Source of the DNA: a virus
Reading direction: 5' to 3' (one strand)
Virus record (IMG/VR): IMGVR_UViG_3300019124_000003
Location: 1-64,000 of that record
Length of the DNA stretch: 64,000 nt
The position numbers and the translations under genes were made by a program. Positions 18,684 through 27,308 of this stretch are shown piece by piece. Position 1 is the stretch's first letter. The number at the start of each line of letters is the position of its first letter. The notes under the pieces are model-generated. The model saw nothing but the letters and a program-made list of their open reading frames with translations, had not been told where the DNA came from and searched no databases.

Positions 18684-19070
18684 TCACGCGCCGCCCAGCT
18701 CCACGTTCCGCACGGAGCTCGGGCCCCAGCGTTGGCCCAGCGCGGGTTTGATGCCGCGTTTGTTCAGCTCCTCGGCGATGCCGCGATAGCTGTTGATGCC
18801 GTTCGCCCGGATCTCCTTGATGACCGGACGGACCTGCTCCCGAAACTCGATCGCCTGCTTGTGCCTGGTTTCGTGGCCGCGGTGCCGGCCCAGATGCAGC
18901 CCGGCGAGCCGTCCTGGCTTGCCGCGCTGCTCCAGCGCTGCCCTCAAGTTCTCCCGGGCGACACGGAACTGGTCCCAGAAGGTCGGCGATTCCGGATCGA
19001 GGTTCACGATCACCTCGGCCGCCCTTCGCAGGTTCCGATGTCGCACCTGGAGCGCTTTCAGGTCAGGCAT
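18684..19070 (-). CDS. stand-alone recombinase-type HTH domain protein
   Basis: RPVIKEIRANGINSYRGIAEELNKRGIKPALGQRWGPSSV parallels the C-terminus of serine recombinase 15330..15989; no catalytic domain. Confidence 0.6.
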   Translation of the reverse strand: MPDLKALQVRHRNLRRAAEVIVNLDPESPTFWDQFRVARENLRAALEQRGKPGRLAGLHLGRHRGHETRHKQAIEFREQVRPVIKEIRANGINSYRGIAEELNKRGIKPALGQRWGPSSVRNVELGGA

Positions 19071-19260
19071 CCTTCTCTTCCTCCGTCACGTAGTCGATGA
19101 CAAAGGGCGGATCGACCTCTTCGAGCGCCACTTTCACGGCGGCGTCGATGTTATCGAACCGACCCTGCCATCGCGCGCCCTTCTTGGGCAGTTTGATCTG
19201 AAGCTTTCCGGACTTGGCGTCGCGGAACACCTTCAGAACAGGCTTAACGGCGTCATCCAT
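19063..19260 (-). CDS. hypothetical protein (65 aa)
   Basis: Full ORF, overlaps neighbours by a few nt. Confidence 0.55.
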   Translation of the reverse strand: MDDAVKPVLKVFRDAKSGKLQIKLPKKGARWQGRFDNIDAAVKVALEEVDPPFVIDYVTEEEKDA

Positions 19261-19384
19261 CGCTTCGTGCCCAGGCGATTGTGGTCACGAAGTCGCGAAC
19301 GACGCGCAGTCCGGGAAGTGTCACCACCCCGGCCAGGAAGGACAGGATGCCAAGCACAACGTAGGAATAAGTCGTCGGGTCCAT
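19256..19384 (-). CDS. small membrane protein (42 aa)
   Basis: RBS GGAGGA; MDPTTYSYVVLGILSFLAGVVTLPG...; below ORF-track cut-off. Confidence 0.45.
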
Positions 19385-19433
19385 CGATGTTCCTCCAAGT
19401 CACTTCTGACTGTCAACCCCGGCTAAAGGGTCA

Positions 19434-19691
19434 TCAGTTGAGGGTGACTTCCATCGCGGTCATCGTCTCGCTCGCCATGTAGAGCTGATCGAGGATCGCC
19501 GGATTCTTCAGGGCGTAGGCGAGCGCCAGGATCTTCCTGCCCTGGTCGATCTGGGCGTCCGTCAGCGTCTCCGGATCGATCTCGCCGGTGGAGAAGACCT
19601 GGAAGGTGCCGTCGGGCTTAAGGACGATGCCGGCGTCGCCGCGCTGGATCGGGGTGGTCAGGACGTTCTCGGTGGTGATCAGTGCCGTCAC
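19434..19691 (-). CDS. hypothetical protein (85 aa, GTG start)
   Basis: Leader GCAACACGAGAGGAGAAATC then GTG; class-2-like promoter at 19725-19748. Confidence 0.55.
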   Translation of the reverse strand: MTALITTENVLTTPIQRGDAGIVLKPDGTFQVFSTGEIDPETLTDAQIDQGRKILALAYALKNPAILDQLYMASETMTAMEVTLN

Positions 19692-19724
19692 GATTTCTCC
19701 TCTCGTGTTGCGTTTCGTGCTTCT

Positions 19725-19748
19725 CACATAGCGATGGCGCAGCGGGAG
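19725..19748 (-). promoter_or_regulatory. class-2 phage promoter
   Basis: CTCCCG-N10-GCTATGTG upstream of 19434..19691. Confidence 0.45.
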
Positions 19749-19752
19749 CGCG

Positions 19753-19914
19753 TCAGATGCCGAACAGTCCCAAAACGTCGGAAGCCTCGGACCGGGCTGG
19801 GTTCCGAGGCTTCCTGGTGTAGGCCTTCTTTGACCTGACGATGCGCTGGCGATAGAGCGGTTTCGCCAGTTCGCGGGCGGCATGATTCGGCTTCTTGCTA
19901 AGCTTCTTCCGCAT
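19753..19914 (-). CDS. small basic protein, ArfA-like (alternative ribosome-rescue factor A pattern)
   Basis: MRKKLSKKPNHAARELAKPLYRQRIVRSKKAYTRKPRN...; PL(F/Y)RQR(V/I)...KK...Y.RK resembles E. coli ArfA [34 protein letters not shown]; sigma-70-like promoter. Confidence 0.45.
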   Translation of the reverse strand: MRKKLSKKPNHAARELAKPLYRQRIVRSKKAYTRKPRNPARSEASDVLGLFGI

Positions 19915-19938
19915 CCTTATCTCCTATAAATTTGTTCT

Positions 19939-19966
19939 TGCATACAACTTGTGTGCAACTTGTAAA
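19939..19966 (-). promoter_or_regulatory. sigma-70-like promoter
   Basis: TTTACA-N16-TATGCA upstream of the ArfA-like gene; direct repeat ACAAGTTG x2 across it. Confidence 0.5.
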
Positions 19967-20135
19967 TACTTAGCATAAGTTACACGGTAACGCTACGGGA
20001 TTTAGCGAAAAGGCGACTTCGCGCAAAGGCGAATTAGCGTGGTGAAAACGCCGCAGCCTTTGAAAACGTTGGATAAATCGGAATGGTTAAGCTGTGAACT
20101 GTTTTTTTGTTCACAGTTTGTTCTCGTTCACCATA

Positions 20136-20165
20136 TTGACGAGAGCCTCGGCAACCCTCATTAAA
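20136..20165 (+). promoter_or_regulatory. sigma-70-like promoter
   Basis: TTGACG-N18-ATTAAA upstream of the EF-hand gene. Confidence 0.4.
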
Positions 20166-20234
20166 AGTGGCGCGGCTGGTTGGGGCGAATACAGATAAGA
20201 TAGCCCCTAGTCTGCTTTCCAAAAGGTATAAGCC

Positions 20235-20699
20235 ATGACAGTCACTATTAGGGGCAGCTTCCAGACACACAAAGAAGGTCTCGCTGCTGCAATGTTGATC
20301 GCCGCAAGAAATTACGTTGCGGCAAAGGGGCTGGGTTATTTCGATGCCTCCAAGCTTTCCGAATACCCACGTCGCCTCGAAGACCATGCCGGCGAGATCC
20401 TTGCGCTCGGCACCAATGCCTTCGATGACGAAGAGGAAAGCGAGGAGCGTTCGAGAACGCGCTCCATGAACACTGCCGTCGAGGTGGTCCGGCAACATGG
20501 GCGCCGCCTGGCGCTGATTATTTTCGTGCTCGCCGCATTGCCGGCCTATTCCATCCTCGACTGCGATGCCGACGGCATGATCAGTCTTGCCGAGATCGAG
20601 TGCGTCTTCGACGGCTCGCATTCGCATGGCGCAAGCGTCGTCGCGGCGACGGATAGCGCGCGCACGAAGTCCGCTGCCATGCTCGGGGAGAACCAATAG
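20235..20699 (+). CDS. membrane protein with canonical EF-hand loop
   Basis: DCDADGMISLAE fits the 12-residue EF-hand loop; TM LALIIFVLAALPAYSIL; own promoter and terminator; opposite strand to neighbours. Confidence 0.7.
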   Translation: MTVTIRGSFQTHKEGLAAAMLIAARNYVAAKGLGYFDASKLSEYPRRLEDHAGEILALGTNAFDDEEESEERSRTRSMNTAVEVVRQHGRRLALIIFVLAALPAYSILDCDADGMISLAEIECVFDGSHSHGASVVAATDSARTKSAAMLGENQ

Positions 20700-20752
20700 A
20701 TCTTCGACGCCGATTTGGCTGAAACCAACTGATCCGCTGCGGCAGCAGCGAC

Positions 20753-20783
20753 ACCCCGGGTCCAAGACCCGGGGTTCTTGCTT
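20753..20783 (+). terminator. intrinsic terminator after the EF-hand gene
   Basis: ACCCCGGG-TCCAAGA-CCCGGGGT then TCTTGCTT; abuts the 3' end of tRNA-Cys on the other strand. Confidence 0.65.
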
Positions 20784-20787
20784 GAAT

Positions 20788-20862
20788 TGGAGTTGCGGGA
20801 GGGACTTGAACCCTCATAGACGGATTTGCAGTCCGCCGCCTCACCCTTCGGTCCACCGCAAC
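20788..20862 (-). tRNA. tRNA-Cys (GCA)
   Basis: Manual fold: 7-bp acceptor GTTGCGG/CCGCAAC, anticodon loop CTGCAAA, T-arm GAGGG-TTCAAGT-CCCTC, discriminator U73, CCA encoded; D-stem weak. Confidence 0.85.
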
Positions 20863-21080
20863 GAAATTTCGGCCCGCTGAATCGGGATGCCAGGCAAGCC
20901 GGGGATCGGAGCCAGACGGGCCCGGATGGTTTCGGTTCATCCTACTGCCACCCATGTTCGGGTCGATGCGGGCCGGATTGGCTACCGGCACCCGGTTTTG
21001 CGACCCAACCCGTCGGCTGGGGCTCAGGGCGGTCCCGACTCTAGCGAGCTCCCGGAGGATCTACCTCTGCCGCATCGAAA

Positions 21081-21156
21081 TGGTTGCTCCGGCTGGATTT
21101 GAACCAGCGCTCCCGGATTATGAGTCCGGCGCTCTACCAGGCTGAGCTACGGAGCC
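21081..21156 (-). tRNA. tRNA with CAT anticodon (Met, Ile2 or initiator unresolved)
   Basis: Manual fold: D-arm GCTC-AGCCTGGTA-GAGC, anticodon arm CCGGA-CTCATAA-TCCGG, T-arm GCTGG-TTCAAAT-CCAGC, CCA encoded; G1-A72 mismatch. Confidence 0.8.
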
Positions 21157-21256
21157 GAAGAGTGCAGGTCGGACGCTACCCCGACCCTGTGGACGATAGG
21201 CGTGGTATCGACGCCTCGTTTTACGTCATCGGCATTGCTGCCGACCCTGGAAGGCG

Positions 21257-21329
21257 TGGAGCCGGCCGGAATCGAACCGGGCATCCTTCGCAGACCGTTC
21301 TGGACGCTCTACCCTTGAGCTACGGCCCC
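21257..21329 (-). tRNA. tRNA-Ala-like element with non-canonical anticodon arm
   Basis: Acceptor GGGGCCG/CGGCTCC with G3:U70, canonical D-arm GCTC-AAGGGTA-GAGC and T-loop TTCGATT. The anticodon region TCCAGAACGGTCTGCGA cannot form a 5-bp stem with a 7-nt loop and has no U33. Confidence 0.5.
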
Positions 21330-21843
21330 AAAACTCGTTGGGGCTTCCCCGTCCCAGGTTCTCGTTCCACTGATTAGCGTGTTCGCTCCCACGCCGCTGC
21401 ACTCTCCGTAAAACTCGGTGATGGGGAGGGACCAGTTGGATCCCACTGGGTTGGTGGAAGGCCCCTCCCCTATTCGGTGCTCCGATTATCGTCGTGGCCC
21501 TCGGAGCAACGGGCGGTCGCATCACGCTCGATCCAGGCGTCCGCCGTTCACGCCAGCGAGACCACACGCAAGTTTAGGTCATTGCAGACCCGCTTCCGCG
21601 AGAGATGGCACGGAACCCTGGCTCAGACGCGCGAGGCGTCCCCAAGTAGGCGGTGCGTGCCGAGATCAAAGATTTGATGTCGGTGTTGCGGCAGGTCTCC
21701 CGGATCAGTGTTTAGCGATGCGGGCGACGGTATAAGGCCGCTATGGCGAACGTGTCAAGTCAGAACTGACTTAGCTAACGTCGGAGCATGGTTCCCTCCC
21801 CTGTTGTCGCTGCGCGTGTCGCTCATGCGCTGTCGATGATTTG

Positions 21844-21867
21844 ACTATAGCAGCGCATGAGCGGCTG
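21844..21867 (-). promoter_or_regulatory. class-2 phage promoter of the tRNA region
   Basis: CAGCCG-N10-GCTATAGT; no ORF follows for ~500 nt before the tRNA-like element. Confidence 0.5.
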
Positions 21868-21910
21868 TGTGTCGGGATTTAGCGAAGCAGCGAAATAGCC
21901 GCTTCGCCCT

Positions 21911-22186
21911 TTAGCGCCACTGAGCCTTGAGCTCCTGCACGCCCTTCGTGACCTCGGCCTGGTCGTAGCGGGGATGGCGCTTCCAGTAAGCCATCTTCTT
22001 CTCGCAGATCGCCATCTCCTTGCGCGCCTGGGCCCGCTCGCGCCCGTCCTTCGAGGCCTTGGCGATGAAGTCGAGGTAGAGGTAGTTCGCGTAGTGCTTG
22101 AGATAGTGCTTGACCGCGTTCCAGCGCTCATACGGGACGGTTGGAGCTCCGCCCTCGTGTCGTTCTTCGCTATAGATGATCGCCAT
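21911..22186 (-). CDS. hypothetical protein (91 aa)
   Basis: Start MAIIYSE behind class-1 promoter and leader CAGCAACACGGAGG. Confidence 0.65.
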   Translation of the reverse strand: MAIIYSEERHEGGAPTVPYERWNAVKHYLKHYANYLYLDFIAKASKDGRERAQARKEMAICEKKMAYWKRHPRYDQAEVTKGVQELKAQWR

Positions 22187-22219
22187 ATGCGAACCTCCGT
22201 GTTGCTGAACGATCACATG

Positions 22220-22251
22220 ATCGCGCAGCAGAGCACGGAAGTCGGGTGGGA
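22220..22251 (-). promoter_or_regulatory. class-1 phage promoter
   Basis: TCCCACCCGA-N14-TGCGCGAT upstream of 21911..22186. Confidence 0.5.
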
Positions 22252-22274
22252 AATTAGCGGTTTAGCGAAATCGC

Positions 22275-22499
22275 CTATTCGCTCTCGTCCTCGACAGTCT
22301 CCTTCAGCAGTTGCCTGAGCAGAAGGTCCTGGTTGTAGGAGTTGAGCTGGCGCGTCACCAGCACCGTCACGTAGACCAGGTGCTTCGGATCCTTGATCTC
22401 GGCGAAGGCTCTCCGGACGTTGAGCCCCTCCCCTATCCGCACCCAGCCGGCAATCCGGTCGGCCTTGTCAGCCAGAACTCTCAGCTCCCCTTCGGTCAT
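22275..22499 (-). CDS. hypothetical protein (74 aa)
   Basis: RBS GGGGACGGAG; full ORF. Confidence 0.65.
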   Translation of the reverse strand: MTEGELRVLADKADRIAGWVRIGEGLNVRRAFAEIKDPKHLVYVTVLVTRQLNSYNQDLLLRQLLKETVEDESE

Positions 22500-22556
22500 C
22501 TCCGTCCCCTTTTAGCGCTTTCGCGAATTCGTCATCGGTCAGGAGGTGGATATACA

Positions 22557-22739
22557 TCAGGCCACCCATTTTCCGCCACCGCAGCTCCATGAGCGGGGCT
22601 GCTTCACGCCGATGATCTGGTCGTCCGGGAAGATGGCCCGATGCTTCTCCCGGGCTTCTTTGGGCGAATTAGCGAAATGGTCGGCCGCGAAGCTGCGATT
22701 CCAGCCGGGCCGCTTCCAGAACACGAGATAGTGGTTCAT
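22557..22739 (-). CDS. hypothetical protein (60 aa)
   Basis: Start MNHYLVF, ATGA coupling. Confidence 0.55.
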   Translation of the reverse strand: MNHYLVFWKRPGWNRSFAADHFANSPKEAREKHRAIFPDDQIIGVKQPRSWSCGGGKWVA

Positions 22740-22912
22740 CGGGCCGCCTCCCTGGCGACAATCACGCCGTCCTTCAGCAGCACCACCTGCCGGATGCCGC
22801 CTTTGGCGATCCGCGCGCACTCGCGGGCGTAGCGGGCCCGGGCGGCGTCGCCGTCCTCGACCGGAGCGCGCCAGGTCGGCGCGCCGCGGTAATCCACGAT
22901 CACCTGATACAT
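22736..22912 (-). CDS. hypothetical protein (58 aa)
   Basis: MYQVIVDYRGAPTWRAPVED...; strong RBS CGCGAAAGGAGGAA; below ORF-track cut-off. Confidence 0.5.
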   Translation of the reverse strand: MYQVIVDYRGAPTWRAPVEDGDAARARYARECARIAKGGIRQVVLLKDGVIVAREAAR

Positions 22913-22958
22913 CGCTGATTCCTCCTTTCGCGAATGGGCGATTTAGCGAAACGAAGGC

Positions 22959-23417
22959 TCACCAGGAGCCCTCTTCCGCAAGCTGCGCGGGATCCGGCCG
23001 CTTGACCTTCAGCCGGAGCCGAACCAGGTCCACGTCGTCATTGACGCCGCGATTTAGCGATTTCGCGAGTTCGCGCGGCCGCGCCGGCGGTGCGTCGTAG
23101 ACGACCAGTCCGCCGTTGGCCTCGATCTCCTCGAGGAGCTGGCGCCAGTATTTGCGGAGCATCGGTCGCGCTTTCGCTAATTGGCGATCGGTCATGTGAT
23201 TGCGCCACCTCGGCAGCGCCTTCGCGATCGAGGTCAGGAACGGCGCGTCGTTGGCGTTGAAGCCGCGGCCGTTGCGGACCCGGGTGGTCTCGTCGGACTG
23301 CTCGTCTTCGGTCTGCCGGGCGAACAGGGTCAGGATCGCTTTGGCGACCGCCTGATCGTTGGTGTCGAGGAGCTGGATGATCGCGTCTTTGTCCCAGACT
23401 TTCTGCTGCGTGGTCAT
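22959..23417 (-). CDS. hypothetical protein (152 aa)
   Basis: Start MTTQQKV behind class-1 promoter at 23455-23486. Confidence 0.7.
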   Translation of the reverse strand: MTTQQKVWDKDAIIQLLDTNDQAVAKAILTLFARQTEDEQSDETTRVRNGRGFNANDAPFLTSIAKALPRWRNHMTDRQLAKARPMLRKYWRQLLEEIEANGGLVVYDAPPARPRELAKSLNRGVNDDVDLVRLRLKVKRPDPAQLAEEGSW

Positions 23418-23454
23418 CGTCGTGTCCTGCAATAGCGTTGCTGACGAGACGACG

Positions 23455-23486
23455 ATCTCAAATTCCTGACGGACAGTCGGGTGGGA
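23455..23486 (-). promoter_or_regulatory. class-1 phage promoter
   Basis: TCCCACCCGA-N14-TTTGAGAT upstream of 22959..23417. Confidence 0.5.
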
Positions 23487-23827
23487 TTTCGCGAATGCGC
23501 GAATGGGAGATTTAGCGATAGCGCGGAATCGCTTTAGAGCGTCGCTGAGCGACGGCAGCGCGTGTCGAGTGTCGCTCTAGTGACGAGAGCGCCCCGTCGC
23601 TCTGTGAGCGCTTAGAAGCGCTGCAAAGCTATAACCAGTTCAACGCTACTTGAACGATTGCGCGATCTTGCGCGTTGTGCGCTGGACGCGGCTCCGGCCG
23701 ATGGCTAGGAAGCCGCGTCTAACTGGAAAGCAGACAAACTTGGCGGCTCCGGTCTCGGCTGGAGTCGCCCTTTTAACGCCTGGGATTCGAAAAGGTTTGG
23801 TCGGGGGATCGACCGCGAATCCGCTAT

Positions 23828-23992
23828 TTAGCGAAACCAGCTCATCACCGTGCCGCCCGCGGCCACAAAGCCCAAGAGCACCAGGAATCCGAAGGCGGCC
23901 ACGCCGAGCATTTGGACGATCTCCGGCAGCTCCCGTTCGATGAAGAACTGGATGGAGATCCGGAGGTTTCTCAGATGCCAGCGGATGCCCAT
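23828..23992 (-). CDS. small membrane protein (54 aa)
   Basis: RBS AAAGGAGGAA; MGIRWHLRNL...GVAAFGFLVLLGFVAAGG; below ORF-track cut-off. Confidence 0.45.
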   Translation of the reverse strand: MGIRWHLRNLRISIQFFIERELPEIVQMLGVAAFGFLVLLGFVAAGGTVMSWFR

Positions 23993-24013
23993 TTTCGCTA
24001 ATTCCTCCTTTCG

Positions 24014-24280
24014 TTAAATCGTTATCGGAAACCAGACGCGGACGTGGCTGGAGCCGGGATGGTCCCAGTCCCAGGTCACGTTCTCGGTGATGCTGAAGGC
24101 TTTGAGCCAGTGCTCCATCGCCGGCCGGTCCGACGCAGGGATCACGATTCTTGCCTTCACATTCGGCTCGGCGCCGTCAAGCACGACGACCACATCGAAG
24201 ACGGCGAGATCCGTCGTCTTCTTGAGGTGGTCGATCAGCAGCTTGAGGGGAGGGACGTAGGATTTCGCGGTTTCGCTCAT
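24014..24280 (-). CDS. hypothetical protein (88 aa)
   Basis: ATG 3 nt after rtcB stop; RBS AAGGGGA. Confidence 0.65.
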   Translation of the reverse strand: MSETAKSYVPPLKLLIDHLKKTTDLAVFDVVVVLDGAEPNVKARIVIPASDRPAMEHWLKAFSITENVTWDWDHPGSSHVRVWFPITI

Positions 24281-24283
24281 TCG

Positions 24284-25657
24284 CTAATTCCCCTTCTTCT
24301 TGCGCCAGGGCGCGTCCTTCTCCCAGTCGCCGGCCATGATCGAGCCATAGGGCAGGATCTCGTCGGTGATCTGTGCCAGACCATACTTGGCGATCTGGAA
24401 CCGCACCGCGTCGGCGTTCTTGTAGGCGGACGGCAGCTCGGAGTGGTCCGGGATACCGCAGAACGAGCGAATGTCGAGGCCCTGCGCCTGGAGCGCCGCT
24501 AATTCGTCCTTTAGCGATTCCGCGTTCTCGCGAAGGTGCTGCGAGCGGGAGGAGTTGCGGCCGGCGCCGTGCGGCGCGAAGCCGAGCGCCTCCTTCCTGT
24601 TCTTGTGCCGCGCGATCAGGATCGGCTGGCTCATGTTGAGCGGGATCAGGGTCCGGCCGTCATCGTCCGCGGAGAAGCCGTCCCACGAGGGCGTGGCGCC
24701 CTTGCCGTGATAGAACAGCCCGTCGGACTTCTGGAAAACGAAATTATGTTCGTTCCAGAACCGATCGACGATCTTGTTGCCGATCATCATCGCGGCGAGG
24801 TCATGGATCGCGAAATGCGAGCGCTTGGTCCAGTCGCGGACGATCTGAAGGGCCTTCCAGTATTCCTGCCCGTCGGCCGAATCCGCCTTGAGCCAGGCAT
24901 TGTGCGCCGGGACCTTCGGGGCGTGGATCGCCGTGTGCCGCTTCGCATCGGCCATGCCGCGCTTGTAGAGCTGCGCGCCCAAGCCCCTCGAGCCGTGATG
25001 GGTCACGAGGGCGAGCTGTCCCGTGCTCTTGAGGCGGCCCACATAGGCGAAGTGGTTGCCGTCGCCCTGGGAGGCGAAGTGCCCGAGCGCATAGTTCTCC
25101 AGGCCCGCTAAATAGCGATTTCCCGAAATCGCGCTCATGATGGCCCGCGGCGGCTCGATCATCTTGTCGCGCCCGCCCGGCCCGAAATGCGTCACCGACT
25201 GCACCGCGTCGAGCAGCTTCTTGGGCTCGTCCTGGCGCATGAACACCGAGATCGCCACCGAGCAGCAGATGTCGGACGAGTGGAAGCCCGGATGGATCGC
25301 GTCTTCGCAGGCGACCGCGCCGCCGACCGGAATCGTGCCGAGCTGGCTGCCGGCAGGGCAGGCGTCGGGCATCACCGCGCCGGCCTTGATCGTCGGCACC
25401 CGCATCAGAGCGTCCATGTGCTTGACGACCGCTTCCAGGTTCTCGCGCTCCTGGTCCGTCTCCGGATCAAGGAAGACGGAGTAGGGGAGGGCGTTCGTCC
25501 GCAGCAAGGTTTCGACCGGCTGCATCGTCTGGAGATGGGCGAAGATTGCGTCATCGTCCGCACCCTCCGCGCGCATACGGTTGGCCGTCAGGAGCGCGTC
25601 CTTGAACCACCTGCCGGGCTTGAAGCCCCATTCTTGTAGTGTGAGCCCCGTGATCAT
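24284..25657 (-). CDS. rtcB: RtcB-family RNA 3'-phosphate ligase
   Basis: 457 aa with GDGNHFAYVG, HHGSRGLG and C-terminal PHGAGR blocks typical of RtcB. Confidence 0.9.
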   Translation of the reverse strand: MITGLTLQEWGFKPGRWFKDALLTANRMRAEGADDDAIFAHLQTMQPVETLLRTNALPYSVFLDPETDQERENLEAVVKHMDALMRVPTIKAGAVMPDACPAGSQLGTIPVGGAVACEDAIHPGFHSSDICCSVAISVFMRQDEPKKLLDAVQSVTHFGPGGRDKMIEPPRAIMSAISGNRYLAGLENYALGHFASQGDGNHFAYVGRLKSTGQLALVTHHGSRGLGAQLYKRGMADAKRHTAIHAPKVPAHNAWLKADSADGQEYWKALQIVRDWTKRSHFAIHDLAAMMIGNKIVDRFWNEHNFVFQKSDGLFYHGKGATPSWDGFSADDDGRTLIPLNMSQPILIARHKNRKEALGFAPHGAGRNSSRSQHLRENAESLKDELAALQAQGLDIRSFCGIPDHSELPSAYKNADAVRFQIAKYGLAQITDEILPYGSIMAGDWEKDAPWRKKKGN

Positions 25658-25691
25658 CGTTCTTTCGTCCTTTCGCTATTTCGCGGAATCG

Positions 25692-26051
25692 TTACTGGTT
25701 GCGCTTCTTGCGCGGATCCTGGTCCTCGCGCAGCGCGCGGCTCTGCTCGGCCATCTCCTTCGTGATGTTCATCACGGCGCCCAGATCCTCGTATTCGTGG
25801 ACCATCGCCGTCTCGACCTTCATCGGAACCGGGTGAGGGGTCAGCGTCGTGATCGCGACCGAGCCGCCCGCGTTGAGCAGGGCGAGCTCCTCCTTCGTCG
25901 GCTTCCACATCGACGTGACGGTGTAAGCCTGAATGTCCGGATACCAGATGCGCTGCACGGACAGCTCACCGCACGGCCCGAGCTTGCCCTCGTCCCAGCC
26001 TTCCGGCTGGCCGTAGCGCTGGTTGGCTCCTTCGAACAGAATCGGGCGCAT
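25692..26051 (-). CDS. hypothetical protein (119 aa)
   Basis: Full ORF, immediately upstream of rtcB. Confidence 0.7.
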   Translation of the reverse strand: MRPILFEGANQRYGQPEGWDEGKLGPCGELSVQRIWYPDIQAYTVTSMWKPTKEELALLNAGGSVAITTLTPHPVPMKVETAMVHEYEDLGAVMNITKEMAEQSRALREDQDPRKKRNQ

Positions 26052-26065
26052 GAAACCTCCTGTTG

Positions 26066-26365
26066 TTACGCCACGTTGCGGACGGGGATCTTGAGGGCCT
26101 CGTAGAGGGTCACGGCGCGCGGGCAGAAGCCGAAGAAGCCGGAGAGCTCCTCCAGGCGCGCGAACTGCTCGACCCGCTCGATGTTCTGGCGCGTATCGAG
26201 GTGATAGGCGACGTAGGGCTTCTCGACGCCCTGGACCTCAAAGACCTGCATGAAGCCGCGGCTCCGATCGAACCCGCATCCCCAGCGTTGGCTCGCGAGC
26301 TTCACGCCCTCGATCGTGAGGGATCCGCCGTCGGCAAGTGAAATGGTGTGACGCTCGATCTGCAT
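26066..26365 (-). CDS. hypothetical protein (99 aa)
   Basis: Full ORF; RBS GGGAAAGGG. Confidence 0.7.
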   Translation of the reverse strand: MQIERHTISLADGGSLTIEGVKLASQRWGCGFDRSRGFMQVFEVQGVEKPYVAYHLDTRQNIERVEQFARLEELSGFFGFCPRAVTLYEALKIPVRNVA

Positions 26366-26404
26366 GGAATTCGCCCTTTCCCGAATCCGCTAATTCGCTA
26401 TTTC

Positions 26405-26432
26405 GCCAAAAGGGGAGGGCGTTACCCTCCCC
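26405..26432 (-). terminator. intrinsic terminator after 26457..27308
   Basis: GGGGAGGG-TAACG-CCCTCCCC then TTTTGG. Confidence 0.65.
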
Positions 26433-26456
26433 GTTTTCGTCAATCGGTGATGAGGA

Positions 26457-27308
26457 TCACTCCTCGCTCTTGCCCATCAGGTCCTTGAGCGCCTGGGCGA
26501 GCATCGAGTCGGCGCGCAGCTTCAAGGTCTGCTTCTCGCGATCCGCGATCTTGAGGATCGGGAAGAGCGCCATGATCTGACCCGCCTGACTGCGCGCGGT
26601 GCCTTCCGAATACTTCTTGCGGAGTGCGGCCACGAGGTCGGTCGAGGTCGTCTCGCCGGTCTTCGCCAGGACCTCGAAGCACTCCATCACGTAGACGGAC
26701 GGCTTGCGGCCCGCGGCGACCGCGGCGAGCACGTTGTCGAACTTCTCGGCAACCTTCTTGATCGCCGGGCGCGAGGCGAGCACGGCCGCCTTGTTGGCGT
26801 CGAGATCCTCCGGGATCTCGGTCGTGAGCACGAAGTTCTCGGCCGGCAGGCTCGACAGGTCGCGGGCGACGCGCGGAACGCCGGTGCCTTTCGAAGCCTT
26901 CGTCTTCGCAGGCTTCGTCTCGACCGGCGTCGCCTCGGTCGTCATGTCGCTGCCTTCGGCGCTCTCATACGCCTCGGACTTGGCGATCTCGATCTCGACG
27001 GCCCGATCGATGTCCTCGTCCACCAGGTCCTCGATTTGGGCATCGTCCGCAGTCTGCGCCTCAAGCGCCGTCTCGTCGGGCTCCTCCACGATGTCCTCCT
27101 CGATCGCCGGCTCGTCGCGGTCCTCGACCGGAAGATCATCGAGCAGGTCGAGGGCGGCCATCACGTCGTCGGCCACAACATCGCCAGAAGTCACGCCAGG
27201 GTTCACAGTCATCGCTTCAATCTCCTCTAGTAGTGCGCTCGTCGCGTCATCGCTTGCGACAGTTTCAGTTATAGCGTCGTCCTGACGGAGCTGCGGGTGG
27301 GATTGCAT
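26457..27308 (-). CDS. acidic protein with C-terminal domain related to 6628..7476
   Basis: N-terminal half very Asp/Glu-rich; C-terminal TARSQAGQIMALFPILKIA resembles TASTQTSSTMHALQALGIVKA; alternative start at MTVNPG (RBS AGAGGAGA). Confidence 0.7.
   Translation of the reverse strand: MQSHPQLRQDDAITETVASDDATSALLEEIEAMTVNPGVTSGDVVADDVMAALDLLDDLPVEDRDEPAIEEDIVEEPDETALEAQTADDAQIEDLVDEDIDRAVEIEIAKSEAYESAEGSDMTTEATPVETKPAKTKASKGTGVPRVARDLSSLPAENFVLTTEIPEDLDANKAAVLASRPAIKKVAEKFDNVLAAVAAGRKPSVYVMECFEVLAKTGETTSTDLVAALRKKYSEGTARSQAGQIMALFPILKIADREKQTLKLRADSMLAQALKDLMGKSEE

What the first reader, a model, noticed from the sequence alone, without database searches (positions are those of the whole stretch)
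19753..25657. Translation-rescue / RNA-repair neighbourhood: ArfA-like peptide, tRNAs and RtcB
Within 6 kb lie four elements:
- A 53-aa basic protein whose core (AKPLYRQRIVRSKKAYTRKPR) resembles the ArfA ribosome-rescue factor ([21 protein letters not shown]). It is driven by a strong host-type promoter.
- tRNA-Cys (with the CysRS identity base U73) and a CAT-anticodon tRNA.
- The Ala-like tRNA element.
- An RtcB 3'-phosphate RNA ligase.

RtcB can reseal tRNAs cut by anticodon nucleases, extra tRNAs can replace depleted ones, and ArfA-type factors release ribosomes stalled on truncated mRNAs. Together these look like a counter-measure module against host RNA-targeting defences (anticodon nucleases, mRNA interferases, and abortive infection by translation arrest). 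The ArfA-like call is the weakest link.
Basis: partly seen in the sequence, partly recalled or inferred. Interest (0 to 1): 0.6.

Follow-up and report, generated by a model that had tools for sequence, protein, structure and literature searches.

The report
Phage ArfA-like ribosome-rescue gene
A 114-kb phage related to rhizobium phages carries a tiny gene that is a true but unusual relative of the bacterial ribosome-rescue factor ArfA, built with ArfA's self-limiting RNA hairpin. It lies near an RNA-repair ligase and three tRNA-type genes, but nothing shows that these neighbours work as one unit.

Summary
All four elements are real.

**ArfA-like gene.** The 53-aa ORF (19753-19914, minus) is a divergent member of the ArfA family.
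- Alone it scores below Pfam's cut-off (13.9 vs 25.5 bits).
- Viral homologues that share its 12-residue core pass the cut-off.
- A family profile hits only E. coli ArfA among solved structures (E 4e-12).
- A profile of its subgroup aligns to E. coli ArfA (hhalign 95.6%).
- It lacks the 'GKG' insert and the KH motif.
- A perfect 12-bp hairpin lies inside the ORF just after the conserved core. The closest relative keeps it through two compensatory changes. Comparable in-ORF hairpins occur in phiM12, RXM and bacterial homologues. This is the known arfA design that yields a non-stop mRNA gated by tmRNA.

**Other parts.** RtcB keeps all six catalytic residues. tRNA-Cys and tRNA-Met(CAU) are sound. 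The third element is tRNA-like, with alanine identity marks and a defective anticodon arm.

**Module reading: weak.**
- The parts lie in three separate transcription units.
- ArfA-like genes occur in only 2 of 28 RtcB-carrying relatives, both close kin.
- Those two kin have no tRNAs.

Phage ArfA has been annotated before (RXM, HTVC027P). This scan noted the same theme in other genomes.

The parts
19753..19914 (-). arfA-like gene, 53 aa, basic. Conserved core is residues 10-35. It lacks the GKG insert and has RN where E. coli ArfA has the KH motif. The C-terminal tail is hydrophobic.
   Evidence: ORF and Shine-Dalgarno sequence. Pfam ArfA is the only hit, E 0.037. PHROG 20887, 1.2e-5. Profile and HMM tests.
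19780..19814 (-). In-ORF RNA hairpin. Perfect 12-bp stem (arms 19780-19791 and 19803-19814), 11-nt loop, codons 34-45, then GACGUUUUGG. Candidate RNase III site or weak terminator that would yield a non-stop mRNA.
   Evidence: z = -3.0, 0 of 200 shuffles fold as well. Two compensatory pairs plus one G-C to G-U change in L023. Only about five or six perfect hairpins with stems of 12 bp or more occur in the 64-kb window.
19939..19966 (-). Candidate promoter TTTACA-N16-TATGCA, overlapping a direct repeat ACAAGTTG x2 (19945-19963). Weak match.
   Evidence: Read. The repeat is unique in the window. The promoter scan does not call it.
20235..20699 (+). Opposite-strand gene for a 154-aa membrane protein with an EF-hand-like loop. 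It separates the tRNA operon from the arfA-like gene. Its terminator hairpin is at 20753-20775.
   Evidence: No Pfam or PHROG family.
20788..20862 (-). tRNA-Cys(GCA), with U73 and an encoded CCA.
   Evidence: ARAGORN. Rfam 50.2 bits.
21081..21156 (-). tRNA with CAU anticodon, an encoded CCA and a G1-A72 mismatch. Whether it is elongator Met, initiator-like or Ile2 is undecided.
   Evidence: ARAGORN. Rfam 65 bits, with the 1-72 pair flagged as non-standard.
21257..21329 (-). tRNA-like element. Acceptor, D and T arms are intact, with G3:U70 and A73 (alanine identity marks). The anticodon arm is defective (4-bp stem with a tetraloop, or an alternative fold). No CCA is encoded.
   Evidence: Rfam 44.4 bits. 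ARAGORN calls it only at a lowered threshold, with an odd fold. No look-alike in phages or viral contigs.
24284..25657 (-). RtcB 3'-phosphate/5'-OH RNA ligase, 457 aa, of the phage clade PHROG 1075.
   Evidence: Pfam 92 bits. PHROG 3e-99. Aligned to P. horikoshii RtcB: D129, C132, H220 and H363 match D95, C98, H234 and H404. N201-H202 and H304-N305 fit the NH and HN motifs.

Best explanation
This is part of the early/auxiliary gene region of a 114.5-kb phage with terminal repeats, related to rhizobium phages. It holds three neighbouring but separately transcribed units that all touch translation.

1. rtcB sits in an operon of small unknown genes. It is an intact RNA ligase that can reseal RNAs cut to 2',3'-cyclic-phosphate/5'-OH ends (inferred: host tRNA or rRNA).
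2. A tRNA operon encodes a tRNA-like element with alanine identity marks, a CAU tRNA and tRNA-Cys.
3. A stand-alone arfA-like gene follows.

The 53-aa product is a homologue of ArfA (shown). By inference, its basic tail enters the empty mRNA channel of ribosomes stalled at the 3' end of broken mRNAs. Its Y21/QRIV segment then recruits the host's RF2 to release the peptide.

The gene carries a conserved hairpin inside its reading frame (shown). As in bacterial arfA, this probably truncates the mRNA before the stop codon. The peptide would then be tagged and destroyed by tmRNA, and would accumulate only when trans-translation is saturated, as expected during infection or nuclease-type defence (inferred).

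The closeness of the three units reflects shared ancestry and the clustering of host-takeover genes, not a demonstrated functional module.
For: **Homology**
- IMG/VR homologues share the identical 12-residue core and pass Pfam ArfA's gathering score (38.8 vs 25.5 bits).
- A six-sequence phage profile hits only ArfA chains in the PDB (E 1.6e-4). The 150-sequence family profile does the same at E 4e-12.
- 83 of 150 family representatives match Pfam ArfA and 23 match DUF7230.
- An HMM built only from GKG-type members scores the window protein at 37.8 bits.
- The GKG-less subgroup profile against E. coli ArfA gives hhalign probability 95.6%, E 1.2e-8.
- Equivalents of F25 (Y21), Q27-E30 (Q23-V26) and the basic tail are kept. 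The residue roles come from review PMC8012679.

**Gene design**
- The 12-bp in-ORF hairpin has z = -3.0.
- L023 preserves it with two compensatory pairs, while the loop, the flanks and the encoded residues differ.
- In-ORF hairpins lie at the same place in phiM12 (10 bp plus U6) and in RXM g10 (11 bp).
- Bacterial homologues L070 and L075 have in-ORF terminators.
- E. coli arfA folds the same way. The review documents the stem-loop/non-stop/tmRNA logic and the hydrophobic tail.

**RtcB and separation of the units**
- RtcB keeps its catalytic residues.
- The units are separated by an opposite-strand gene and a terminator.
- Synteny with L023 is conserved except in the tRNA segment.
Against: - The window protein itself fails Pfam's ArfA cut-off (13.9 bits).
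- It lacks the GKG of KKGKGSY and has RN in place of the KH motif that contacts the mRNA channel.
- The hairpin starts about 11 codons closer to the core than in E. coli. Cleavage in its 5' arm would leave a peptide equivalent to about 41 E. coli residues. A 40-residue E. coli ArfA is inactive (PMC8012679).
- The U-tract after the stem is weak, and no RNase III cleavage or termination has been shown.
- Several phage homologues have no hairpin at all (Cr30, HTVC027P, L010, L037), so gating is not universal.
- The host is not identified and RF2 compatibility is unknown.
- No experiment exists for any phage ArfA.
Confidence: 0.6

Rival explanations
1. First reader's module. ArfA-like, RtcB and the tRNAs act together as a counter-defence kit. 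RtcB reseals cut tRNA or rRNA, phage tRNAs replace depleted ones, and ArfA/RF2 clears ribosomes stalled by the damage. This would resemble the bacterial PrfH-RtcB2 rescue-and-repair pair.
For: - All parts are real and lie within 6 kb.
- RtcB and ArfA-like stay 3-5 kb apart in L023 and L037.
- In the three independent ArfA-like phage lineages that own a repair ligase, the ligase is within 10 kb: RtcB here; T4 Rnl1-type 0.6 kb away in Caulobacter phage Cr30; about 9 kb away in phiM12.
- phiM12's copy sits among a CCA-adding enzyme, a RelA/SpoT protein and Pth2.
- An RtcB relative, L039, has a two-piece tmRNA 4 kb downstream.
- PrfH-RtcB2 is a published precedent (PMC9304027).
Against: - ArfA-like occurs in 2 of 28 RtcB records, both close kin, so this counts as one evolutionary event.
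- RtcB is found in 0 of 16 and 0 of 5 ArfA-like records.
- Six of nine ArfA-like lineages have neither ligase.
- The lists of cultured phages with each gene do not overlap.
- 18 of 28 RtcB records have no tRNA, including both nearest kin.
- No tRNA lies beside the ArfA-like gene in ten other loci.
- The units are transcribed separately here.
- Early-region clustering can explain the proximity.
Confidence: 0.22
2. The peptide is an ArfA mimic used against the host. It occupies the empty mRNA channel and blocks tmRNA-SmpB (or ArfB) without productive RF2 activation. This would keep phage products from being tagged, or blunt a tmRNA-dependent host response.
For: - The channel-binding part is altered: the GKG insert is lost and KH is replaced by RN.
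- E. coli ArfA A18T shows that binding and RF2 recruitment can be uncoupled from release (PMC8012679).
- In the profile alignment, the position equivalent to A18 is R14.
Against: - The RF2-contact segment (the aromatic residue plus QRIV) is the best conserved part.
- The same GKG-less form is a conserved chromosomal gene between ada and moaA in Methyloceanibacter-type Alphaproteobacteria, where an inhibitor makes little sense.
- The tmRNA-gated gene design fits a back-up factor.
Confidence: 0.1
3. The small ORF is a chance reading frame or a generic basic nucleic-acid-binding peptide. The hairpin would then be merely a terminator or processing site for the neighbouring genes.
For: The ORF is short and lysine/arginine-rich. 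A 149-aa frame overlaps it. Pfam's E-value is only 0.037.
Against: - The exhaustive profile search returns 616 family representatives at E <= 1e-3, with invariant core positions.
- The gene is syntenic in L023 and L037.
- Profile matches go only to ArfA.
- It has a good Shine-Dalgarno sequence.
Confidence: 0.04

Closest known systems
ArfA (YhdL; Pfam PF03889) of E. coli and other gamma/beta-proteobacteria; ribosome-bound structures 5MDV, 5H5U, 5U4I, 5MGP
   Same: Small basic peptide. The helix, the aromatic residue, the QR(V/I) strand, the KK..Y.RK core and a basic tail are shared. A hydrophobic C-terminal tail and a stem-loop inside the ORF are shared too, the basis of non-stop, tmRNA-gated expression.
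   Different: Three-residue GKG deletion. RN replaces the KH motif. The hairpin lies about 11 codons nearer the core. The gene is phage-borne, in a lineage infecting Alphaproteobacteria, a class in which a 2024 survey found arfA in 0 of 2,376 genomes (PMC11633108). It scores below Pfam's threshold.
Phage genes already annotated as ArfA: Citromicrobium phage RXM g10 (PMC8953757) and pelagiphage HTVC027P gp30 (PMC12753301)
   Same: Phages of Alphaproteobacteria that carry a short ArfA-family gene. RXM g10 also has an in-ORF hairpin starting at the K codon of YTRK, and a hydrophobic tail.
   Different: Those two are GKG/GRG-type and pass Pfam. They are annotation only, with no functional test and no mention of the hairpin. 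Neither phage has RtcB.
Pfam DUF7230 (PF23876), small basic proteins of unknown function
   Same: The GKG-less relatives phiM12 gp363 and the IG49/OLIVR5 ORF match it weakly. So do 23 of 150 family representatives.
   Different: The window protein does not match it at E <= 1, and ArfA is its only Pfam hit. The data here tie this group to ArfA.
PrfH-RtcB2 ribosome rescue-and-repair operon (PMC9304027, PMC9223846)
   Same: A ribosome-rescue factor and an RtcB ligase are encoded close together.
   Different: PrfH is a release-factor homologue in a two-gene operon with a dedicated RtcB2. Here the rescue factor is ArfA-like, 4.4 kb away in another transcription unit, and the pairing is not conserved. 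The window RtcB is far below the cut-off of the PrfH-linked RtcB model (37 vs 272 bits). The phage has no RF-1 domain gene.
T4 Pnkp/Rnl1 tRNA repair against the PrrC anticodon nuclease; phage tRNAs that replace cleaved host tRNAs (from general knowledge)
   Same: Same concept: a phage-borne RNA ligase and tRNAs that restore translation after host RNA cleavage.
   Different: Different ligase family. No end-healing enzyme, archease or RtcA is found in this phage. No target nuclease is known.

Membership tests
ArfA (PF03889) | Scores at or above Pfam's gathering threshold (25.5 bits) | tested here: not met
   13.9 bits, E 0.037, the only Pfam hit. Close viral homologues with the same 12-residue core score 35-38.8 bits.
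ArfA (PF03889) | Profile-level homology to experimentally characterised ArfA | tested here: met
   Family profiles hit only ArfA chains in the PDB, at E 1.6e-4 and 4e-12. hhalign of the GKG-less subgroup against E. coli ArfA gives 95.6%, E 1.2e-8. An HMM of GKG-type members only scores the window protein at 37.8 bits.
ArfA (PF03889) | RF2-contact segment: aromatic residue at F25 plus the Q27-E30 strand | tested here: met
   Y21 and Q23-R24-I25-V26 align to F25 and Q27-E30. Residue roles are from PMC8012679.
ArfA (PF03889) | KKGKGSY segment and KH motif in the channel-binding tail | tested here: not met
   The GKG is deleted and RN replaces KH. L023 has RH, and many GKG-less relatives keep KH.
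ArfA (PF03889) | Stem-loop inside the ORF giving a non-stop mRNA, plus a hydrophobic C-terminal tail | tested here: met
   The structure is present and covaries. Whether it is cleaved or terminates transcription is not testable with these tools.
ArfA (PF03889) | RF2-dependent peptide release on non-stop ribosomes; synthetic lethality rescue with ssrA | not testable with these tools
   Needs biochemistry or genetics.
RtcB (PF01139) | Pfam threshold, plus metal ligands Asp/Cys/His x3 and the GMP-accepting His | tested here: met
   92 bits vs 27. D129, C132, H202, H220, H304 and H363 correspond to P. horikoshii D95, C98, H203, H234, H329 and H404. H202 and H304 are assigned by motif; the printed alignment does not cover H202 and shifts around H304.
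Canonical elongator tRNA (third element, 21257-21329) | Cloverleaf with a 5-bp anticodon stem and a 7-nt loop with U33 | tested here: not met
   The anticodon arm pairs only as a 4-bp stem with a tetraloop. The alternative fold has C33 and a broken D arm. The rest of the cloverleaf scores 44.4 bits in Rfam.
PrfH-RtcB2-type rescue/repair module | Rescue factor and ligase co-transcribed and co-inherited across lineages | tested here: not met
   The units are separate. Co-occurrence is 2 of 28 and 0 of 21.

The most novel reading that the evidence does not exclude
Phages of Alphaproteobacteria bring their own tmRNA-gated ArfA into hosts that mostly lack arfA. Where they also carry an RNA-repair ligase (RtcB here, T4 Rnl1-type in Caulobacter phage Cr30 and phiM12), the two genes are kept close together as a phage 'rescue-and-repair' pair. 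ArfA/RF2 would clear ribosomes stalled by nuclease-type defences while the ligase mends the cut tRNA or rRNA. This would be a viral analogue of PrfH-RtcB2, built from non-homologous parts.
Probability: 0.2. Interest if true: 0.7.

Novelty: new variant of a known kind. Interest (0 to 1): 0.45.

Why it matters
ArfA is described as a back-up rescue factor of gamma- and some beta-proteobacteria. A 2024 survey found it in no alphaproteobacterial genome (PMC11633108).

Three results here go beyond that picture:
- A GKG-less branch of the family is carried by phages of Rhizobium, Agrobacterium, Sinorhizobium, Ochrobactrum and related hosts.
- The same branch is a chromosomal gene next to moaA in Methyloceanibacter-type bacteria.
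- ArfA-like ORFs turn up in 28 of 401 alphaproteobacterial species genomes sampled.

The phage genes keep arfA's non-stop hairpin. This implies the phage reads the load on the host's tmRNA system and adds rescue capacity only when that system is saturated. That would be a new way for viruses to manage host translation. It can be tested directly in tractable pairs such as Caulobacter/Cr30 or S. meliloti/phiM12.

For annotation, these 40-55-aa genes are mostly uncalled or labelled hypothetical.

Tried and rejected
- **Word-indexed protein search.** The 53-aa protein returned only itself.
- **The search for related loci with the 150-row alignment failed**. A 12-row subgroup alignment was used instead.
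- **tmRNA or other RNA families.** Rfam at E <= 1 over 19000-26500 found only the three tRNA-type hits. ARAGORN 'tmRNA' and extra 'tRNA' calls at lowered thresholds were judged noise.
- **Look-alikes of the Ala-type tRNA-like element.** None in phages. No exact match of its anticodon arm in viral contigs. A T-arm match was an unrelated tRNA-Tyr.
- **Strong sigma-70 promoter.** Not found by the scan. The ACAAGTTG repeat does not recur in the window.
- **Partner enzymes in the phage genome.** No RF-1/PrfH/ArfB domain, archease, RtcA or CCA-adding enzyme.
- **Genes between rtcB and arfA-like.** Pfam and PHROGs gave only families of unknown function.
- **Structure prediction of the peptide** was not attempted, because ArfA is disordered off the ribosome.

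Full report
**Context.** The window is the first 64 kb of a 114,497-bp IMG/VR virus record with direct terminal repeats, rated 100% complete. GC content is about 63%. Its nearest cultured relatives by RtcB are Bradyrhizobium phage BDU-MI-1 and Rhizobium phages of the RHEph10 type. Nearly all genes in the stretch lie on the minus strand.

**Observation.**
- The 53-aa ORF is at 19753-19914 (minus), with AGGAG six bases before the ATG.
- ARAGORN and Rfam agree on tRNA-Cys(GCA) at 20788-20862, with U73 and an encoded CCA. They also agree on a CAU-anticodon tRNA at 21081-21156.
- Rfam finds a third tRNA-type element at 21257-21329 (44.4 bits against a gathering score of 29). ARAGORN misses it at default settings.
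- These three are the only tRNA-type genes in the whole phage.
- RtcB is at 24284-25657 (Pfam 92 bits; PHROG 1075, 3e-99).
- The 'strong host-type promoter' is not confirmed. The scan calls nothing on the minus strand. The best candidate by eye is TTTACA-N16-TATGCA at 19966-19939, overlapping a direct repeat that is unique in the window.

**The 53-aa protein is an ArfA homologue.**
- Alone it matches Pfam ArfA and nothing else, but weakly (E 0.037, 13.9 bits against a cut-off of 25.5). It also matches PHROG 20887, of unknown function (1.2e-5).
- A scan of viral contigs found 14 homologues. Most carry the identical 12-residue core ELAKPLYRQRIV followed by KKGKGSY, the signature of E. coli ArfA. 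These pass Pfam's ArfA threshold (35-38.8 bits).
- A profile of six phage sequences hits only ArfA chains among all PDB sequences (E 1.6e-4).
- An exhaustive profile search of 1.84 billion representatives returned 616 proteins at E <= 1e-3, all 35-110 aa.
- Of the best 150, 83 match Pfam ArfA and 23 match DUF7230. Their joint profile hits E. coli ArfA at E 4e-12, and nothing else in the PDB.
- About 79 of these have the G-x-G insert and about 61, like the window protein, lack it. The two forms otherwise share the same core.
- An HMM built only from the insert-bearing members scores the window protein at 37.8 bits, with a clean 3-residue gap.
- A profile of twelve insert-less members aligns to E. 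coli ArfA with hhalign probability 95.6%, E 1.2e-8.
- Pairwise BLASTP of the window protein against E. coli ArfA gives 43% identity over 35 residues.
- One caution: the family was recruited with a profile that included the window protein. However, its members match Pfam ArfA and the solved ArfA independently.

**Residues.** The functional roles below come from review PMC8012679.
- *Kept:* Y21 aligns with F25, which makes hydrophobic contact with RF2. Q23-V26 aligns with Q27-E30, the strand that joins the RF2 beta-sheet. K29-K30, Y32 and R34-K35 align with K33-K34, Y39 and R41-K42.
- *Not kept:* the GKG of KKGKGSY is deleted. RN replaces the KH motif, which binds a pocket in the mRNA channel. 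L023 has RH, and many insert-less relatives keep KH.

**arfA-style gene design.**
- Folding the mRNA showed a perfect 12-bp stem inside the ORF. Its arms are at 19780-19791 and 19803-19814, covering codons 34-45. It is followed by GACGUUUUGG and then a short hydrophobic tail before the stop.
- The local fold has z = -3.0, and none of 200 shuffles folds as well.
- Only about five or six perfect hairpins with stems of 12 bp or more occur in the whole 64-kb window.
- In the nearest relative, L023, the hairpin is at the same codons. Two pairs changed on both sides (U-A to C-G and A-U to C-G) and one G-C became G-U. The loop length, the flanks and the residues encoded by the 3' arm all differ (z = -2.35).
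- Independent lineages show the same layout:
  - phiM12's 46-codon gene has a 10-bp stem plus U6 inside the ORF (z = -2.8).
  - RXM g10, annotated as ArfA, has an 11-bp stem that starts at the K codon of YTRK, followed by a hydrophobic tail.
  - Two alphaproteobacterial chromosomal homologues have terminator-like hairpins with U-runs well before their stops (L070, L075).
- The short forms (Cr30, CRP-212, HTVC027P, L010, L037) simply end after the basic tail and have no such hairpin.
[quoted passage not shown] E. coli arfA folded here shows that hairpin from about codon 52.
- The window's hairpin lies about 11 codons closer to the core. This leaves open how long the truncated product would be. 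Cleavage or termination itself is inferred, not shown.

**Where the family lives.**
- Cultured phages with an ArfA-like ORF by tblastn are mostly phages of Alphaproteobacteria: Rhizobium/Agrobacterium IG49, LG08, IC12 and OLIVR5/6; Sinorhizobium phiM12, phiM7, phiM19 and phiN3; Caulobacter Cr30; Ochrobactrum ORM_20; Roseobacter CRP-212; Pelagibacter HTVC027P; Citromicrobium RXM. Weak hits also occur in Acinetobacter T4-like phages.
- Two papers already call the RXM and HTVC027P genes ArfA from domain annotation alone (PMC8953757, PMC12753301).
- A published survey found arfA in 0 of 2,376 alphaproteobacterial genomes (PMC11633108). Here the family profile found an ArfA-like ORF in 28 of 401 alphaproteobacterial species genomes sampled. 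Both insert-bearing and insert-less forms occur.
- The insert-less form closest to the window protein is a conserved gene in Methyloceanibacter and related MAGs, on contigs up to 1.3 Mb. In L056 it lies between an ada-type methyltransferase gene and moaA, an ordinary chromosomal setting.

**RtcB.** Aligned to P. horikoshii RtcB, D129, C132, H220 and H363 match D95, C98, H234 and H404. The GDGNHF and EHN motifs supply the remaining two histidines. The protein belongs to a phage clade annotated as tRNA-splicing ligase in many rhizobium, Cellulophaga and Tenacibaculum phages. It is far below the cut-offs of NCBI's equivalog models, including the PrfH-linked one. The phage has no RF-1 domain protein, archease, RtcA or CCA-adding enzyme.

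**The tRNA-type genes.**
- tRNA-Cys is canonical.
- The CAU tRNA has a G1-A72 mismatch, flagged by Rfam. It has only two of the three G:C pairs typical of initiator anticodon stems. Its identity (Met, initiator-like or Ile2) stays open.
- The third element has good acceptor, D and T arms, with G3:U70 and A73. Its anticodon arm forms only a 4-bp stem with a tetraloop. ARAGORN's alternative fold has C33 and a broken D arm. It encodes no CCA, unlike its two neighbours. It has no look-alike in the collections searched.
- It is either a decayed tRNA gene or a tRNA-like RNA of unknown role.

**Is it a module?**
- *Layout.* On the minus strand, rtcB heads a run of small unknown genes. The tRNA operon follows. 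An opposite-strand gene for an EF-hand-like membrane protein, with its own terminator (20235-20775), then intervenes. The arfA-like gene follows with its own upstream region.
- *Synteny.* The whole block is syntenic with L023, except that L023 has an unrelated antisense ORF where the window has tRNAs. In L037 the arfA-like gene sits directly after the homologue of the 157-aa ORF.
- *Co-occurrence.* Among 28 viral records with this RtcB, only these two kin have an ArfA-like ORF anywhere (2 of 15 records at least 90% complete). None of 16 plus 5 ArfA-like records has RtcB. Thirteen of these are fragments, but the eight cultured phage genomes among them were searched in full.
- *tRNAs.* Only 10 of 28 RtcB records have tRNAs, often far from rtcB. 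Both nearest kin have none. Ten other ArfA-like loci have no tRNA nearby.
- *In favour.* When an ArfA-like phage does own a repair ligase, it lies near: 4.4 kb here; 0.6 kb in Cr30 (T4 Rnl1-type); about 9 kb in phiM12, whose copy also sits among a CCA-adding enzyme, RelA/SpoT and Pth2. One RtcB relative (L039) has a genuine two-piece tmRNA 4 kb downstream of rtcB.
- *Weighing.* Three lineages are too few, and phage early regions cluster such genes anyway. I rate the module reading at about 0.2. The bacterial PrfH-RtcB2 pair is the closest precedent.

**Earlier notes of this scan** (read after the hairpin and homology work). Other windows gave the same picture: ArfA-like mini-genes in phages, some next to rtcB only within close kin, some with in-ORF hairpins, and a link to DUF7230. 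They agree with this report but are not independent evidence.

**Verdict.** The solid result is a phage-borne, insert-less ArfA-family gene with a covarying in-ORF hairpin. The rescue function, the tmRNA gating and any cooperation with RtcB and the tRNAs remain inferences to be tested.

Noticed in passing
window 21081-21156 (minus): The CAU-anticodon tRNA has a G1-A72 mismatch at the top of the acceptor stem, with G2:C71 and C3:G70. This recalls the 1-72 mismatch of bacterial initiator tRNA. Its anticodon stem has only two of the three G:C pairs, and the D stem is elongator-like. Its identity is open.
   Followed up: partly
window 20235-20699 (plus), hairpin 20753-20775: An opposite-strand gene for a 154-aa protein with one hydrophobic helix and a 12-residue EF-hand-like loop (DCDADGMISLAE). 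It has no Pfam or PHROG family. In L023 a different 218-aa antisense ORF fills this slot.
   Followed up: partly
L039 15195-15482 (IMGVR_UViG_3300037258_000282, 152.6 kb): A viral record with an RtcB homologue (50% identity) carries a full alphaproteobacterial two-piece tmRNA (Rfam 82-84 bits; tag ANDNFACEARLAA) about 4 kb downstream of rtcB, beside tRNA genes. The record has 25 tRNAs in all.
   Followed up: partly
L079 (Caulobacter phage Cr30, KF301602.1 11130-11240): An unannotated 48-codon ArfA-like ORF (GKG type) lies two genes upstream of a T4 Rnl1-type RNA ligase. The host, C. crescentus, is a model for ribosome rescue and has ArfB but no known ArfA.
   Followed up: partly
L054-L066 (Methyloceanibacter and related alphaproteobacterial MAGs): A conserved chromosomal, insert-less ArfA-like gene of about 65-70 codons has a long basic N-terminal extension. 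In L056 it lies between ada and moaA. ArfA-like ORFs occur in 28 of 401 alphaproteobacterial species genomes sampled, against 0 of 2,376 in a published nucleotide-HMM survey.
   Followed up: partly
window 20863-21080 and 21330-21870 (minus): A 218-nt GC-rich spacer between tRNA-Met and tRNA-Cys, and about 540 nt without a credible ORF upstream of the tRNA-like element. A perfect 13-bp inverted repeat lies at 21820-21863. No Rfam family matches at E <= 1.
   Followed up: no
L080 (Roseobacter phage CRP-212, MZ892988.1 39097-39192): An ArfA-like ORF (GKG type, with a KH motif) lies in another frame inside a long annotated CDS (gp38). Either the annotation or the small ORF is wrong.
   Followed up: no
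L025 1464-1653: In one provirus-type RtcB relative, two tRNA-Arg genes (TCG, ACG) start 84 nt after the rtcB stop. This is the tightest rtcB-tRNA linkage seen among the 28 relatives.
   Followed up: no
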